From Escherichia coli phage NG_S8, in the sequence record LC788711.1: a stretch of DNA of 64,000 nucleotides. The stretch is one strand, 5' to 3'. The notes beneath the pieces are model-generated. The model was not told where the DNA came from, made no database searches, and saw only the letters and a list, made by a program, of their open reading frames with translations. This document shows, piece after piece, positions 5,162-42,272 of the stretch. Made by a program: the position numbers and the translations under genes. Positions within the stretch are counted from its first letter, which is position 1, and each line of letters begins with the position of its first letter.

Positions 5162-6016
5162 TTACACCGTAAATGGATATGCAATAGCAGGATGGTGTTC
5201 ATAGCCACGAACAGTAAAATCATCCTTACTTACCCACGTTAATACATCATCCAAAGTTCTAATATTTGGATTGATTTCTAAAGTAGGAGGTGCAAAAGGT
5301 TCACGATCGAATTGCTTGTGCTCCATCAGAACATTATACTGATCTTCATAGATATGAAGATTAATAATCTTTTGACGAGCAATACCTGGCTTAAGACCTG
5401 TAATCTGTGCCATAATAGCTAGAAGTGCATAGCATTGCACCATATTAAATACTTGGCCCAGCAAGAAATCATTAGACCTCTGGAAAGAGTTTAGGTATAG
5501 TGTATCACCTAAAATAGAGAATTGATGGGTATGCATACACGGACGTAGGCATCCTTTACGAAATTCCCCAGGGTTCCAAAAAGTTAAAATTTCTCCACGA
5601 TCGTCAATCCCTCTTTTCAAATTATGATAGACTTTGGCTAACTGATCAAATACCATACCATCAGAATTAGTCCAATGACGTCCTTGAACACCATAGACTC
5701 GTCCCATATCATCCTCGCCTTTACGGAATGGATTACCTAGCCAGGCAATATTTTCATTTGCATTAGCATTCCATGTATTAACACCAATAGCGCGGAATTG
5801 TGCTGCTGAGTCGTACCCACGGAGATATCCGATCATTTCCATTATTGCTTGTTTAGCAAATGCTTTACGAGTAGTTACTAGCGGCAGTTCTCCTGCTCCT
5901 ACGTTAAAGGTAAAGTCTGCATCAATAATGGTTAGGCAACGAACCCCTGTTCTAGGATTCGTTACCCATACACCCTCTTCAAGAATACGTTTTCCAGTTT
6001 CAATATATTGCTTCAT
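5162..6016 (-). CDS. thyA: thymidylate synthase
   Basis: [10 protein letters not shown] with active-site Cys, [13 protein letters not shown], 284 aa. Confidence 0.95.
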
Positions 6017-6543
6017 TTAAATATCACCAATTCTTGTAAGAATGAAAGCGTTTTATCTGCATTCTGTCCTGCCACATAGTCCATTCTAGTTGCCATTGAA
6101 TTAGTTAAAGTAATATGATGATGCAGATGTACATCAGCAGATAATGGTGTGGCTGAAGTAATAGTAGAGATATACGCCATATCTAGATGATTTTTGACAT
6201 ACATTTCAAGAAGCAGAGTTGCTCCCCCTAATACTACAGTTACCTCTTCCTTGAGAAAATCAGGCAGACGGTATCCAATGTTGCTTATGCGTGTAGCTGA
6301 TCTTATAGAGTTCGGTAGTGGTCTATTTGCATAAATAAATAGGTCAGAATCTCCTAGTATTCTTTTTTGCAGAGTCTCAGGGAATGCTAACCAAGTTCCT
6401 GCTCCTACAATAATATTGTCAGGTGCCAGAGAATCCAATGTAGCATAGAAGATATCTAGTTCTTCTTTGAAAGAACCCCAGGGGAGCTTACCATTGAGGC
6501 CGAACTCCCCATTCGGCCCAGTTGCATAGATTGCTGCTATCAT
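6013..6543 (-). CDS. frd: dihydrofolate reductase
   Basis: N-terminal [14 protein letters not shown]...KLPW motif, 176 aa, adjacent to thyA. Confidence 0.8.
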
Positions 6544-38611: not shown

Positions 38612-38618
38612 TAATAAA

Positions 38619-38650
38619 CCCCAGTGGACAATCCACTGGGGTTTTCTCTT
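38619..38650. terminator. bidirectional intrinsic terminator between convergent early and late transcription
   Basis: CCCCAGTGGA-CAA-TCCACTGGGG followed by TTTTCTCTT on the plus strand and by TTTATTATTAT on the minus strand. Confidence 0.8.
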
Positions 38651-38694
38651 ATTTAGTAAGGAGTTGTTTTACTAATTCCTTTATTTTATTAATC

Positions 38695-38710
38695 TTTTTT
38701 TTTTTTTTTT
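38695..38710. repeat. T16 homopolymer tract
   Basis: 16 consecutive T on the plus strand in the non-coding region. Confidence 0.95.
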
Positions 38711-38734
38711 GAGAGGATGCAAAACGAACCTCTT

Positions 38735-38762
38735 GCATTTTGCATTTTGCATTTTGCGTTTT
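38735..38762. repeat. tandem heptamer repeat (TGCATTT) x4, last copy degenerate
   Basis: TGCATTT TGCATTT TGCATTT TGCGTTT; an upstream ATGCAAAA forms an inverted repeat with the array. Confidence 0.9.
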
Positions 38763-38898
38763 CATATTGTACATAAGAACAGCCTAAGAATCAGCGAACT
38801 GTTAACATAGCAGAACACGCGTTGCGTTGCTAGGATAATCAATGTTCAGGCTTGTTTCGCAGCAATATTTTTCAGTGACAGATTGCACTCCACTTATA

Positions 38899-41850
38899 TT
38901 ACGGTAGTTCTGTAATTGTTGGAGCATTTCCGTTAAGCATTGATTTTACAAGATTTTTCAGTTCATATAACTCATTGCGTAATACGTTAATTTCCTCCTG
39001 TTGATTATCAATCTTTGCTTTTTGCTCTTTGAATGCGTTAACAAGAAGTGCGACAACACCATTATAGTTAATGCCTTTGATTGCCTCGCCTTTTGGGTCT
39101 AGCTGACCATCGTTATTCAAAGAATGAACCGCTTCCGGCAAAACCCTTTCAACATCTTGTGCGATCAATCCAGCCTCAATACTATAAACGCTGTTTTCAT
39201 CTTCAATTAGATTGTTGCGCTTGTAGTAAGTATAACCAGTTAGATAATCAATTTTGTCGGATGCCGTTTCGATCTCTTTTAGATGTGCTTTTAATCTAAT
39301 GTCAGACCTGCTAACCCAATTTGATGCGCTACCATTTCCAGCACTATCAAAAATAAATTCAGCGCCCTTAACATAAAGATGTGTTTCAGCGCCGCCAGAA
39401 GTCCACGGAACAACATCCATGCCAGCTATCCAATCTTTCCCCCAATAAACAGATTTAAATATGGCAACCGCAGAATCAAATCCAATGTGCTCAACAAGCA
39501 ATCCAGACGCACGACTACGCCAGTCGGCAAATGAACCACCCTCAACTTGACCAGCAATAAGAGCGTTTGGATCACCGCGCCTAACTCCATTTACATACAT
39601 ACCCCTTGCGTTATCATCAACATAAGATGATATGACCCTGTAAGTGTTTATTCCTGATGGAGTCCATGCAAATATTCTCGCTGAATCAGCAAACGCGCTT
39701 ATGTGACCATCACGATCCCATTTAAGACCTGAATCATAATCCCCAATTGCTATAGAGTAATCACCAAGAGCCGATTGAGCATCCGGACTTAATAACATCA
39801 ATTGCCTATCAGATCTTGCTATCCTGTACCATCCACCCCAAGAGCCAGCACTGCAAATGATACCCCATTTATTACCGTTCATTGTGGTTGCAACAATATT
39901 TCCATACTCAACATGACCGTTTGCATTTTTACCGTGAACATGCAATTCATACATCCACCAACCAGAGGCTTCAGGTGGTTGATATGTAACAAGTTCTCCA
40001 CTTGAGTAATAACCGCTTTCTGCGTATGTTGACATAAACCCAAGAATGTTTGAATTATCAGGAATAATAATTGCTTGACCACCAACAGGAGTATTTAAGT
40101 TCTTTCTTGCTCCAACTTCAGTATTAGATCCAGTGCCGCCAGCATCAATTGAAAGAGGAATCCATCTTCCAGTTTCATCAGTCCAAACACCCCACGCCGC
40201 ATCAGGTCTAATTGTGATTCGATAAGGTGAGTTACTCCCTGGTGCATACATCATAGTTTCTGTTTCTGTTTGCTTTAAACGATCAATGCCAAAGTTTATT
40301 TTTGCGCCCTCAACGTTTTCAGCACCAGTACCGCCAGCACCAATAGAAAGCGCAGATGTGCTGTTATTGTCATTACGCGCAACGCGCCATTCCCCATTGT
40401 TAGCGATCCGTAATTCATAAGTCCATGCAGGATTACGAAAAGAATTATAAGCGCCAGCATATTGATCTTTTACAGAATTAACAGCCTCAACTTTTAGCGC
40501 CTCCCTTGCAAGGTCTTTGTTTGCAAGATCATTAAGGTTCTGATCCTTCTTTAACGACGCTTGCATAACCTGTTCTGCTGATGCAGCCGCTGTCTCCGCT
40601 CTATCTGCTGCACTGGTGGCATTAGTAGCTTTCTCTCCTGCTATTGTAGCGCTACCAGCGGCCTCCAGGGCCTTGTCTGTTGCTGTCGTTGCAGCAGTAG
40701 TGGCGGTATTTTTAAATACCTCTGCTTCGTCTCTGTAGCCTTTGGTTGTGGTCATCGCTTGCGTAGCTGTATTCGCACTACCTGATGCACTTTGCTGAGC
40801 TAGCTTAGCAGCGTCTTCACTAGCTTTTGAGTTAATTTCACTAGTCTTTGTATTAGTTTCTGAGTTTTTTGCTGCTAATGCTGATGTGGAGGCTTGTGCA
40901 GCGAATGCTTCTGCTTCATCCCTGAATCCTTTGGAGTCAGAAGCAGAGGCAGCGGAATCAGCAGCATTAGTCTCACTAGTTTTTGTTGCTGCTGCATATG
41001 CTGCTGCATTAGTCTCACTAGTTTTTGCATTAGTCTCACTAGTTTTTGCATTAATCTCACTAGTTTTTGCTGCAGCTGATGATTCTATAGCAGTAGTTTC
41101 ACTAATTTTTGCTGCAGCTGATGATTCTGCAGCTTTAGTAGCGGATGCAGCAGATTGAGAAGCAGAAATAGCAGACTGAGAAGCAGAAGCTTCAGAAGCT
41201 TCAGCAGAAATAGCAGATTCATTCTCAGAATTCTTAGCATTAAGTTCTGAAGTCTTAGCAGCTATCTCGGAGTCTTTTGCAGTAGTAGCGTATTCTCCCG
41301 CCTCTGTAGCAGAACCAGCAGCAGCAATAGCCTGATTGGTAGACTCAGTAGCAGATGTAGCAGCATTTTGTTCAGAAGTAGCAGCAGCAGTCTTAGCAGC
41401 CTCAGCGTCCTTCTTAGCTTGTTCAGCTAATAGACGACTCTGTTCAGCATTTTGTGCAGCAAGTTCAGCAGAATCACGGAATCCTTTGGATTCCTCAGCT
41501 GACGTAGCAGAGGCATCAGCACTATCTTTAGATAAACCAGCTTGTCTCTCCGCTTCAGTAGCAGAAGCAGCAGATTGAGTTGCAGAAGTTTCTGAAGAGT
41601 TAGCGTAAATTGCAGCTAGGTTCTCCGAGTCCTTAGCATTTGTTTCAGATTCTTTTGCTGCAATTTCAGAATCTTTTGCTGCCGCAGCAGAAGCAGCAGA
41701 GGCCTCAACAGCCCCTGTTAGTTCACTAGCAGTAATAGAACTAATAGAAGTACCTAAAACTACCGTATACTTAGGATATTTACTAGCAGTAGTTGTAGTG
41801 TCATCTATGTTCAGAATCTGCTGTACAATAATTTTAGTTTTAAGTGCCAT
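38899..41850 (-). CDS. ltf: L-shaped (side) tail fibre with C-terminal intramolecular chaperone domain
   Basis: 983 aa; Ala/Ser/Thr-rich repetitive N-terminal shaft; C-terminal SDIRLKAHLKEIE...GLIAQDVERVLPEAV matches the auto-cleaving peptidase S74 chaperone domain. Confidence 0.85.
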   Translation of the reverse strand: MALKTKIIVQQILNIDDTTTTASKYPKYTVVLGTSISSITASELTGAVEASAASAAAAKDSEIAAKESETNAKDSENLAAIYANSSETSATQSAASATEAERQAGLSKDSADASATSAEESKGFRDSAELAAQNAEQSRLLAEQAKKDAEAAKTAAATSEQNAATSATESTNQAIAAAGSATEAGEYATTAKDSEIAAKTSELNAKNSENESAISAEASEASASQSAISASQSAASATKAAESSAAAKISETTAIESSAAAKTSEINAKTSETNAKTSETNAAAYAAATKTSETNAADSAASASDSKGFRDEAEAFAAQASTSALAAKNSETNTKTSEINSKASEDAAKLAQQSASGSANTATQAMTTTKGYRDEAEVFKNTATTAATTATDKALEAAGSATIAGEKATNATSAADRAETAAASAEQVMQASLKKDQNLNDLANKDLAREALKVEAVNSVKDQYAGAYNSFRNPAWTYELRIANNGEWRVARNDNNSTSALSIGAGGTGAENVEGAKINFGIDRLKQTETETMMYAPGSNSPYRITIRPDAAWGVWTDETGRWIPLSIDAGGTGSNTEVGARKNLNTPVGGQAIIIPDNSNILGFMSTYAESGYYSSGELVTYQPPEASGWWMYELHVHGKNANGHVEYGNIVATTMNGNKWGIICSAGSWGGWYRIARSDRQLMLLSPDAQSALGDYSIAIGDYDSGLKWDRDGHISAFADSARIFAWTPSGINTYRVISSYVDDNARGMYVNGVRRGDPNALIAGQVEGGSFADWRSRASGLLVEHIGFDSAVAIFKSVYWGKDWIAGMDVVPWTSGGAETHLYVKGAEFIFDSAGNGSASNWVSRSDIRLKAHLKEIETASDKIDYLTGYTYYKRNNLIEDENSVYSIEAGLIAQDVERVLPEAVHSLNNDGQLDPKGEAIKGINYNGVVALLVNAFKEQKAKIDNQQEEINVLRNELYELKNLVKSMLNGNAPTITELP
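41006..41068 (-). repeat. 3 tandem copies of a 21 bp unit inside ltf, plus a second 23 bp direct repeat at 41064-41086 and 41106-41128
   Basis: GCATTAGTCTCACTAGTTTTT x3 (third copy with one change); encodes TSETNAK heptad repeats. Confidence 0.9.
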
Positions 41851-42272
41851 TATTGAGTTACTCCATCGCTGATGTATACTTTACCTTCCATAATACGGAA
41901 AGAATTGACTTCAGAGCCAATTACATCACGAGTCATTAGGATATCATAATAACCAGCAAAACGTTGTCTTGGGTTATACTTATCACGTTCTTTAGATGCT
42001 TTTTCACCAATATTAGTAGTGTCTGCAATGGAAAGACTAATTGCAGCAGCACCTTGAGCAGCATCAATAACATGAGTTTTAAAATTAGCTAGAACCTCGG
42101 CGTTCTCATCTAAACTAGATTTAATAGTTCCTCTGAGTGAATACCCTGTCAAGTTAACAGGAAATTCTGTTGGCGGATATACGCTATCATCAACATCCAT
42201 AAATTGCATGATAAGACTATAAGGCACTTTCTCATCAACAACAATATCAATAACTCGGTTTTCTGTACTCAT
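41850..42272 (-). CDS. tail collar protein (T5 p132-like)
   Basis: 140 aa (T5 p132 is 140 aa as I recall), between ltf and pb4. Confidence 0.7.

What the first reader, a model, noticed from the sequence alone, without database searches (positions are those of the whole stretch)
38899..41850. L-shaped tail fibre with 21 bp tandem repeats and a C-terminal auto-chaperone; shorter than the T5 pb1 I recall
At 983 aa this is well below the roughly 1400 aa I recall for T5 pb1. Its shaft contains exact DNA tandem repeats (3 x 21 bp at 41006-41068, plus a 23 bp direct repeat at 41064-41086 and 41106-41128) encoding TSETNAK heptads. That is a ready substrate for repeat expansion or contraction and recombination with other fibre genes. 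The C-terminal S74-type chaperone domain is intact. The receptor-binding tip probably has a different glycan specificity from T5.
Basis: partly seen in the sequence, partly recalled or inferred. Interest (0 to 1): 0.45.

Follow-up and report, generated by a model that had tools for sequence, protein, structure and literature searches.

The report
EPS7-type phage lateral tail fibre gene
This is the ordinary side (L-shaped) tail-fibre gene of a T5-like phage of the EPS7 group, found almost letter-for-letter in dozens of sequenced Salmonella and E. coli phages; its short DNA repeats encode 7-residue units of a coiled-coil shaft, and relatives really do gain and lose whole units.

Summary
A 983-aa ORF lies at 38899-41850 (-). 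It contains a 21-bp tandem array (two exact copies, the third with one mismatch), an exact 23-bp direct repeat, and an intact Peptidase_S74 chaperone with the S849/K854 dyad. The gene is not new. The exact protein is BEU76647.1 of E. coli phage NG_S8, and the DNA is at least 99% identical in 42 phage records, including EPS7, Seafire, BSP22A and BASEL Bas29. The architecture has four parts. Residues 1-40 are an anchor 43/45 identical to the solved DT57C LtfA N-terminus and sit next to an LtfC collar gene. Residues 41-444 are a heptad-periodic helical shaft. Residues 445-848 are a beta-rich distal module unrelated to T5 pb1 but up to 91% identical to lateral fibres of ~50-kb phages (Tlsvirus-like). 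Residues 849-983 are the self-cleaving chaperone. Even so, 31 of 38 close relatives keep 2952 nt. The receptor is inferred, not shown, to be Salmonella O-antigen. Verdict: a correctly read, already known gene of low novelty.

The parts
38899..41850 (-). ltf gene: lateral (L-shaped) tail fibre protein, 983 aa
   Evidence: ORF. Exact match to BEU76647.1 of E. coli phage NG_S8. 99.3-99.8% nt identity to the fibre gene of EPS7, Seafire, BSP22A, Bas29 and others.
41731..41850 (-). N-terminal anchor, aa 1-40, which threads into the LtfC collar
   Evidence: aa 1-45 are 43/45 identical to DT57C LtfA chain 8hqz_d. In DT57C this part forms beta-strands and a lasso inside the LtfC dodecamer, and the helix starts at T40 (PMC10713586).
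40519..41730 (-). Shaft, aa 41-444: Ala/Ser/Thr/Glu-rich and heptad-periodic, predicted alpha-helical (trimeric coiled coil by homology)
   Evidence: Residue autocorrelation is 0.32 at lag 7 and 0.30 at lag 14 against about 0.10 background. The AF2 model has helices 41-111, 121-299 and 308-444. DNA repeat spacings are mostly multiples of 21.
41005..41070 (-). 21-bp tandem array (3.1 copies) encoding TSEINAK/TSETNAK/TSETNA(A), aa 263-283
   Evidence: TRF score 125, 97% matches. Heptad and codon table. Copy number differs in MET_P1_137_112 (+1), falkor (-2) and ZBSTP12 (-4).
40961..41139 (-). Wider 42-bp-period repeat region that holds the array, including the exact 23-bp direct repeat (41064-41086 and 41106-41128)
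   Evidence: TRF period 42, 4.3 copies. Family D2. Bases read directly.
40491..40548 (-). Conserved module junction (gene nt 1303-1360, aa 435-454, KKDQNLNDLANKDLAREALK)
   Evidence: Homology to fibres of ~50-kb phages (several annotated Tlsvirus, Drexlerviridae) starts sharply at gene nt 1303, with 96-98% identity over the junction in TLS, YSP2, KKP 3830 and BubbaBully. Homology to the TrudiRoth allele ends at nt 1337.
39307..40518 (-). Distal beta-rich module, aa 445-848, presumed receptor-binding part of the mature fibre
   Evidence: No similarity to T5 pb1. Up to 91% aa identity to fibres on ~50-kb contigs. AF2 gives a beta-rich domain, confident only for aa ~590-840. aa 692-736 resemble the S16 gp37 tip.
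38902..39306 (-). C-terminal intramolecular chaperone (Peptidase_S74), aa 849-983; S849 is at 39304-39306 and K854 at 39289-39291
   Evidence: Pfam PF13884, aa 849-909, E 1.6e-10. The SDxxxK motif aligns with T5 pb1 1264-1269. Match to the S16 gp37 chaperone region, E 3.7e-13.
41850..42272 (-). ltfC (p132) collar gene, 140 aa; its stop overlaps the ltf start by one base
   Evidence: Pfam LtfC. Full-length match to DT57C LtfC 8hqz_Q (E 1.3e-81) and T5 p132 7qg9_R (E 3.2e-62).
38616..38644 (.). Bidirectional intrinsic terminator between ltf and the convergent dut-side genes
   Evidence: 13-bp stem with 7 GC pairs and T-runs on both strands. T5 is annotated with a bidirectional rho-independent terminator at the equivalent place.

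Best explanation
The ORF is the single-polypeptide lateral (L-shaped) tail fibre gene of an Epseptimavirus, the EPS7 group of T5-like phages. The window's protein is identical to that of E. coli phage NG_S8.

Shown or directly supported:
- Residues 1-40 are the conserved anchor that inserts into the LtfC collar, whose gene lies immediately upstream.
- Residues 41-444 form a heptad-periodic alpha-helical shaft.
- Residues 445-848 are a beta-rich distal module.
- Residues 849-983 are an S74 intramolecular chaperone with its Ser849/Lys854 dyad intact.

Inferred from the family:
- Three chains form a trimeric coiled coil.
- The chaperone drives trimer folding and then cuts itself off before S849, leaving an 848-residue mature fibre.
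- The distal module binds the host O-antigen reversibly and speeds adsorption before the separate pb5-type protein binds its outer-membrane receptor. Salmonella groups B and D are the likely targets, judging by the hosts of phages that carry this allele.

The 21-bp repeats are the most recently duplicated heptads of the shaft. Because the unit is one heptad, in-register slippage or unequal recombination adds or removes whole heptads, which should keep the coiled-coil register (inferred). Relatives show exactly this. The distal half is an exchangeable module shared with lateral fibres of ~50-kb siphoviruses, several of them annotated as Tlsvirus (Drexlerviridae), and it is joined at a conserved junction.
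For: - Identity: megablast gives 359 records, 42 of them at >=99%. The exact protein is in NCBI. The records are classified as Epseptimavirus.
- Anchor: and PMC10713586.
- Shaft: lag-7 periodicity and AF2 helices 41-444.
- Chaperone.
- Repeat dynamics: ZBSTP12 is otherwise ~99.6% identical but lacks 84 nt (4 units) joined in register. MET_P1_137_112 has +21 nt and falkor -42 nt. misterkot and Wa28 lack 112 aa, which is 16 heptads.
- Phage phi37 has an S113-type Ltf with the same proximal shaft. In experimental evolution it acquired delA56-A97 (42 aa) and a 28-aa insertion in the shaft (PMC12541327).
- Module exchange.
- Host inference: records with this allele were propagated on S. Typhimurium or S. 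Enteritidis. Bas29, with a 99.5% identical gene, is the only BASEL phage that plaques robustly on S. Typhimurium (PMC8594841).
Against: - No binding, cleavage or adsorption experiment exists for this allele, so the O-antigen ligand is inferred.
- Bas29, EPS7 and NG_S8 also grow on E. coli, including K-12 without O-antigen, so the fibre is not essential on every host.
- AF2 models were monomers of modest confidence (mean pLDDT 65 and 62). The tip fold found no convincing solved homologue.
- Repeat number is mostly stable: 31 of 38 distinct close relatives have exactly 2952 nt.
- Two shaft length changes are not multiples of 7 aa: bobsandoy +18, which is a sequence replacement, and Shin27 +36.
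Confidence: 0.85

Rival explanations
1. The fibre's distal module recognises something other than O-antigen, such as LPS core or an outer-membrane protein, possibly through a separate adhesin as in the S16/T2-type gp37-gp38 tips.
For: aa 692-736 and the chaperone resemble the S16 gp37 tip (Foldseek 6f45 chains, TM about 0.66-0.68 on the target). Phages with this allele also infect rough E. coli K-12 (PMC8594841).
Against: No ORF of 60 aa or more lies between the ltf stop and the terminator, so no gp38-like or ltfB gene is adjacent. Lateral fibres of T5-like phages that have been tested bind O-antigen and are dispensable on rough strains (PMC4728585, PMC8594841). In the related phi37, Ltf mutations track O-antigen phase variants (PMC12541327).
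Confidence: 0.1
2. The repeat-number differences among database relatives are assembly or sequencing artefacts, and the array is in fact invariant in nature.
For: Tandem repeats are a known source of assembly error. The EPS7 record carries an apparent 1-nt error in this same gene. Most relatives have the same length.
Against: The array is only about 65-180 nt, shorter than typical reads. All variants stay in frame and differ by whole 21-nt units joined in register. They occur in independent isolates from different laboratories. Comparable shaft indels were confirmed by targeted sequencing in phi37 (PMC12541327).
Confidence: 0.07
3. The fibre is branched, as in DT57C (LtfA plus LtfB), and this ORF is only the LtfA-like stem.
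For: The N-terminal 205 aa are close to DT57C LtfA. Bas29's annotation labels two tiny downstream ORFs 'tail fiber protein'.
Against: Those ORFs are 41 and 34 aa, lie in a repeat-rich intergenic stretch, and have no fibre-like sequence. EPS7 is listed in the literature among the single-fibre-gene phages (PMC4728585).
Confidence: 0.03

Closest known systems
Lateral tail fibre of Escherichia phage EPS7 and its group (NG_S8 BEU76647.1, Seafire, BSP22A, S116, SP76, BASEL Bas29 SuperGirl)
   Same: Same gene: 99.3-99.8% nt identity over all 2952 nt, same length, same neighbours (pb3, pb4, ltfC, ltf, then the convergent dut side).
   Different: Only a handful of substitutions. The EPS7 reference record has a 1-nt deletion at gene nt 2412 that truncates its annotated protein to 807 aa.
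Phage T5 pb1 (Ltf, 1396 aa)
   Same: Same role and position in the genome. N-terminal 211 aa are 53% identical. The shaft is SE(T/L)NAK-type and heptad-rich. The C-terminal S74 chaperone has the same SDxxxK motif.
   Different: 413 aa shorter. No detectable similarity in the distal part. T5's solved polymannose-binding tip did not appear in the sequence or fold searches.
DT57C LtfA (PDB 8HQZ chain d, 1076 aa)
   Same: aa 1-205 match at E 8e-63, and aa 1-45 are 43/45 identical. The LtfC partner matches at E 1.3e-81. The helix starts at the same place (T40 in DT57C, residue 41 here) (PMC10713586).
   Different: DT57C has a second fibre gene, ltfB, and a branched fibre; there is none here. The distal parts are unrelated.
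S113-type Ltf (755 aa), the allele of phage phi37 used in gut co-evolution work
   Same: Same genus, same anchor and same proximal shaft (96% nt over the matched stretches; A56 and A97 conserved). Shaft indels in multiples of 7 aa arose experimentally (PMC12541327).
   Different: The distal domain is different. phi37's host-range residues H468, S469 and G491 are present in S113 but are Y, N and A here, so that mapping cannot be transferred.
Lateral tail fibres of Tlsvirus and related ~50-kb Drexlerviridae (Citrobacter phage Stevie gp27, Brooksby, TLS, YSP2)
   Same: The distal module plus chaperone (aa ~435-983) is shared. Identity is up to 91% aa on ~50-kb contigs, 63% with Stevie over aa 693-971, and 96-98% nt at the junction.
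   Different: The N-terminal attachment domain and shaft are entirely different (MALYRxGTA... type). The virion family and genome position also differ.
Salmonella phage S16 gp37 distal fibre tip (PDB 6F45)
   Same: The tip motif (aa 692-736, E 3.4e-4) and the S74 chaperone (aa 848-971, E 3.7e-13) are homologous.
   Different: S16 needs a separate gp38 adhesin, and no such gene is adjacent here. About 110 extra residues lie between the motif and the cleavage site.

Membership tests
Markadamsvirinae (T5-like) lateral/L-shaped tail fibre (pb1/Ltf/LtfA) | N-terminal collar-binding anchor homologous to pb1/LtfA | tested here: met
   aa 1-205 against 8hqz_d, E 8e-63. aa 1-211 are 53% identical to T5 pb1. 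phrog_24369 (1396-position profile) matches aa 3-211.
Markadamsvirinae (T5-like) lateral/L-shaped tail fibre (pb1/Ltf/LtfA) | Encoded directly downstream of the ltfC/p132 collar gene in the pb3-pb4-ltfC-ltf tail module | tested here: met
   ORFs of 949, 685 and 140 aa lie upstream. Pfam finds the PB4 domains and LtfC. LtfC matches 8hqz_Q and 7qg9_R over its full length.
Markadamsvirinae (T5-like) lateral/L-shaped tail fibre (pb1/Ltf/LtfA) | Trimeric alpha-helical coiled-coil shaft starting near residue 40 | tested here: inconclusive
   Heptad periodicity and a monomer AF2 helix from residue 41 to 444 fit this feature. The trimeric state was not modelled or observed.
Markadamsvirinae (T5-like) lateral/L-shaped tail fibre (pb1/Ltf/LtfA) | Reversible binding of host O-antigen that accelerates adsorption | not testable with these tools
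   Only indirect evidence: the hosts of phages carrying this allele and the Bas29 phenotype (PMC8594841).
Peptidase_S74 intramolecular chaperone (endosialidase / pb1 type) | Pfam PF13884 match above the gathering score at the C-terminus | tested here: met
   41.5 bits against a cut-off of 22, aa 849-909.
Peptidase_S74 intramolecular chaperone (endosialidase / pb1 type) | Catalytic Ser and Lys five residues apart (SDxxxK) at the cleavage site | tested here: met
   S849 and K854. The same motif is at 1264-1269 of T5 pb1 and at 583-588 of the Stevie fibre. That these residues are the catalytic dyad comes from the literature on this domain, recalled from memory.
Peptidase_S74 intramolecular chaperone (endosialidase / pb1 type) | Actual autoproteolytic release of the C-terminal domain | not testable with these tools
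   Needs virion mass spectrometry or SDS-PAGE.
T5 pb1-type receptor-binding tip (polymannose O8/O9 binding) | Sequence or fold similarity to the pb1 C-terminal receptor-binding domain | tested here: not met
   BLASTP finds nothing significant beyond the shaft. No pb1 chain appears among the PDB sequence hits or the Foldseek hits, although the model was only moderately confident.
Branched LtfA/LtfB fibre (DT57C type) | A second fibre gene (ltfB) downstream of ltfA | tested here: not met
   Only ORFs of 41 aa or fewer lie between the ltf stop (38899) and the terminator at 38616-38644.
gp37-gp38 adhesin-capped tip (S16/T2 type) | A separate gp38-like adhesin gene next to the fibre gene | tested here: not met
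   No adjacent ORF. The rest of the window was not searched for one.

The most novel reading that the evidence does not exclude
The heptad array and the wider repeat-rich shaft could act as a built-in length-tuning device. In-register gain and loss of 21-nt units would continually produce fibre-length variants, and selection would match these to the thickness or modal chain length of the host O-antigen layer. Under this reading shaft length is an adaptive, fast-evolving trait and not neutral slippage. Shaft indels rose to detectable frequency in phi37 in viscous medium and in the mouse gut, which is compatible with this but does not show it.
Probability: 0.2. Interest if true: 0.45.

Novelty: already known. 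Interest (0 to 1): 0.13.

Why it matters
It matters little as a discovery. The gene, its family, its chaperone and its modular evolution are all documented, and the exact protein is already in GenBank. Its practical value is as a clear worked example. One well-sampled fibre allele shows heptad-unit copy-number changes in register, and it has a sharply defined junction where the receptor-binding half is shared with ~50-kb siphoviruses of a different family. Both facts are useful for engineering the host range of T5-like Salmonella phages: they indicate where to cut and which shaft lengths are tolerated.

Tried and rejected
1. Transferring phi37's mapped host-range residues (H468Y, S469Y/F, G491A, residue 556) to this protein. 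Rejected: all EPS7-type alleles have Y468/N469/A491/W556. The S113 allele has H468/S469/G491, so phi37 carries a different distal domain.

2. IMG/VR scan for more repeat variants.

3. Cluster look-up for length variants. The protein's cluster has a single member.

4. AF2 monomer of aa 441-983 followed by Foldseek against the PDB. Only aa ~590-840 were confident. The best hits were weak (R1 pyocin fibre, E 3.7e-4, TM ~0.2; short S16 gp37 tip chains), so no fold assignment was made.

5. Profile search of alignment A1 against the PDB. The strong 'depolymerase' hits come from the N-termini of the ~50-kb-phage fibres in the alignment, not from this protein.

6. The PH204/SP76 'long tail fibre' swap paper. 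It concerns pb3 and pb4, not ltf.

7. A second fibre gene or adhesin downstream. None was found.

Full report
**Observation**

The window has a 983-aa ORF at 38899-41850 on the minus strand. Tandem Repeats Finder reports a 21-bp unit at 41005-41070 with 3.1 copies, 97% matches and score 125. This lies inside a looser 42-bp-period array at 40961-41139. Read base by base, two copies are identical and the third has one G>A change. The 23-bp direct repeat at 41064-41086 and 41106-41128 is exact. In gene order the heptads are TSEINAK, TSETNAK, TSETNA(A).

The DNA identity exceeds what the protein repeat requires. With the protein fixed and codons redrawn from the shaft's own usage, only 2 of 2000 trials reach the observed 28-nt exact run at lag 21. 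Similar heptads at aa 67 and 200 use other codons. The array is therefore a recent duplication or conversion tract.

Pfam finds Peptidase_S74 at aa 849-909. T5 ltf is 4191 nt, which is 1396 aa.

**What it is**

Megablast against phage genomes finds 359 records. Of these, 42 are at least 99% identical and 82 cover at least 80% of the gene. The best are SLAM_phiST45, 3-29, BSP22A, Seafire, BD13, faergetype, SP76, EPS7, S116 and BASEL phage Bas29 SuperGirl, and they are classified in Epseptimavirus (Demerecviridae, Markadamsvirinae). The exact protein is BEU76647.1 of Escherichia coli phage NG_S8.

The neighbours are those of the T5 tail module. Upstream lie a 949-aa pb3-like protein, a 685-aa pb4 with all four PB4 Pfam domains, and a 140-aa LtfC. 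On the other side are the convergent dUTPase and flap-endonuclease genes. LtfC matches the solved DT57C LtfC (E 1.3e-81) and T5 p132 (E 3.2e-62) over its full length.

**Anatomy**

1. *Residues 1-40.* aa 1-45 are 43/45 identical to DT57C LtfA. In the cryo-EM structure this part donates beta-strands to a dodecameric LtfC ring and forms a lasso, and a trimerising helix starts at T40 (PMC10713586).

2. *Residues 41-444.* This stretch is 30% Ala, 15% Ser, 11% Thr and 11% Glu. Residue autocorrelation is 0.32 at lag 7 and 0.30 at lag 14, against about 0.10 background. A monomer AF2 model is helical at 41-111, 121-299 and 308-444. The two breaks lie just before repeated SKGFRD motifs at aa 121-126 and 306-311. 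Direct DNA repeats fill this region, mostly with spacings that are multiples of 21. The flagged array sits in the longest helix.

3. *Residues 445-848.* This part is beta-rich and Gly-rich, with two GGTG(A/S)...A(K/R).N(F/L) motifs. AF2 is confident only for aa ~590-840. Foldseek finds no convincing solved homologue except the short S16 gp37 tip. phmmer aligns aa 692-736 to that tip.

4. *Residues 849-983.* This is the S74 chaperone. The motif S849-D-I-R-L-K854 has the same SDxxxK pattern as positions 1264-1269 of T5 pb1.

A 13-bp-stem bidirectional terminator at 38616-38644 closes the unit, as annotated at the equivalent place in T5.

**Relation to T5 and others**

BLASTP against T5 pb1 aligns only aa 1-211 (53% identity) and the low-complexity shaft. 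Nothing in the distal part aligns. The fibre is therefore a member of the T5-like Ltf family by its anchor, shaft, chaperone and genomic position, but it does not carry T5's receptor-binding tip.

The distal half is instead shared with lateral fibres of ~50-kb siphoviruses. The Stevie fibre (Tlsvirus, Drexlerviridae) is 63% identical over aa 693-971 and 55% over aa 352-522. Proteins on ~50-kb contigs reach 91% identity over aa 431-983. The homology boundary is sharp. DNA similarity to TLS, YSP2, KKP 3830, BubbaBully and SRT8 begins at gene nt 1303 and is 96-98% over the next ~50 nt. Similarity to the TrudiRoth (Bas30) allele ends at nt 1337. This segment encodes KKDQNLNDLANKDLAREALK at the end of the predicted helix and behaves as a module junction.

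**Repeat dynamics**

| Phage | Change relative to this gene | Comment |
|---|---|---|
| ZBSTP12 | -84 nt (4 units) | only 11 other nt differences; 'ATTAGTGA' of heptad 2 is fused in register to 'GACTAATGCAGCA' of heptad 6 |
| MET_P1_137_112 | +21 nt | one extra TSEINAK unit |
| falkor | -42 nt | two units fewer |
| MSP1, misterkot | same length in the array | two neighbouring heptads converted, giving four TSETNAK plus one TSETNAA unit in tandem |
| Shin27 | +36 aa | duplication beside the array |
| misterkot, Wa28 | -112 aa (aa 114-225) | 16 heptads, elsewhere in the shaft |
| bobsandoy | +18 aa at residue 377 | a sequence replacement |

The array is still mostly stable. Of 38 distinct phages in the top 60 rows, 31 have exactly 2952 nt.

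Published experimental evolution of Epseptimavirus phi37 reports a shaft deletion (delA56-A97, 42 aa) and a 28-aa insertion at position 164, alongside host-range substitutions at residues 468-556 (PMC12541327). I checked which allele phi37 carries. H468, S469 and G491 are present in the 755-aa S113 allele and absent from all EPS7-type alleles, which have Y, N and A. The shaft indels are therefore relevant, because the proximal shaft is homologous. The host-range residues cannot be transferred.

**Mechanism**

By homology with T5 and DT57C, three chains enter the LtfC collar and form a three-helix coiled-coil shaft. If the whole shaft is helical it would be roughly 400 residues long, or about 60 nm at 0.148 nm per residue (my estimate). 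A beta-structured distal part follows. The chaperone drives trimer folding and then removes itself at S849.

The mature tip probably binds Salmonella O-antigen reversibly. Phages with this allele were propagated on S. Typhimurium and S. Enteritidis. Bas29 is the only BASEL phage that plaques robustly on S. Typhimurium (PMC8594841). T5-like lateral fibres bind O-antigen and are dispensable on rough hosts (PMC4728585, PMC8594841). This step is inferred; no binding data exist for this allele.

Heptad-unit indels change shaft length by about 1 nm per unit without shifting the coiled-coil register. That is probably why they are tolerated. Whether length is under selection is open.

**Verdict**

The finding is accurate and its interpretation is supported, but the object is a well-sampled, already deposited gene of a well-understood family. 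Novelty: already known. Interest is low.

Noticed in passing
window 40491-40548 (gene nt 1303-1360): There is a sharp, shared homology boundary here. Fibres of ~50-kb Drexlerviridae-size phages (TLS, YSP2, KKP 3830, DanielBernoulli, BubbaBully, SRT8) become 96-98% identical exactly from gene nt 1303, and the TrudiRoth allele stops matching at nt 1337. It looks like a conserved recombination junction between shaft and distal module that is used across phage families.
   Followed up: partly
proteins P0030, P0035, P0036, P0046, P0073, P0074 and others: The distal module (about 43-62% identity) also occurs in 950-968-aa fibres on ~105-110-kb contigs labelled Salmonella enterica. These have a quite different N-terminus (MWYREGTISF...). 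They may be phage-plasmids or another large siphovirus group, and several clusters have many members.
   Followed up: no
window 38645-38898 (between the ltf stop and the terminator): This 254-nt non-coding stretch has a run of 16 T (38695-38710) and 4.3 copies of TTGCATT (38733-38762). faergetype annotates the latter as a repeat_region. Bas29 annotates two tiny ORFs here (41 and 34 aa) as 'tail fiber protein', which looks like annotation noise. The function of the stretch is unknown.
   Followed up: partly
L007 (Escherichia phage Eps7, CP000917.1), gene nt 2412: The EPS7 reference genome has a 1-nt deletion relative to all close relatives. It truncates the annotated fibre to 807 aa and removes the S74 domain (P0028 has no PF13884 hit). 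It is probably a sequencing error in the 2008 record and not a biological difference.
   Followed up: partly
window aa 121-126, 306-311 and 369-374 of the fibre (about 41473-41490, 40918-40935, 40729-40746): The motif (S/T)KG(F/Y)RD(S/E)AE recurs three times in the shaft. The first two copies lie immediately after the only breaks in the predicted helix (aa 112-120 and 300-307). These are candidate hinge points for the 'L' shape. A 61-nt DNA repeat family (D5) marks them.
   Followed up: no
window 40886-41158 (+) and other antisense ORFs inside the shaft: Several 60-90-aa ORFs on the opposite strand of the shaft are Ala/Ser/Leu-rich mirror images of the low-complexity coding sequence. They have no support as genes. 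T5's record annotates an antisense ORF (T5.134) inside ltf, but at a different place.
   Followed up: no
L018 (Salmonella phage S113) locus 5924-6433: The S113-type locus has two extra small ORFs (orf22a and orf22b, 109 and 54 aa) downstream of its shorter 755-aa fibre. The window has nothing comparable there.
   Followed up: no
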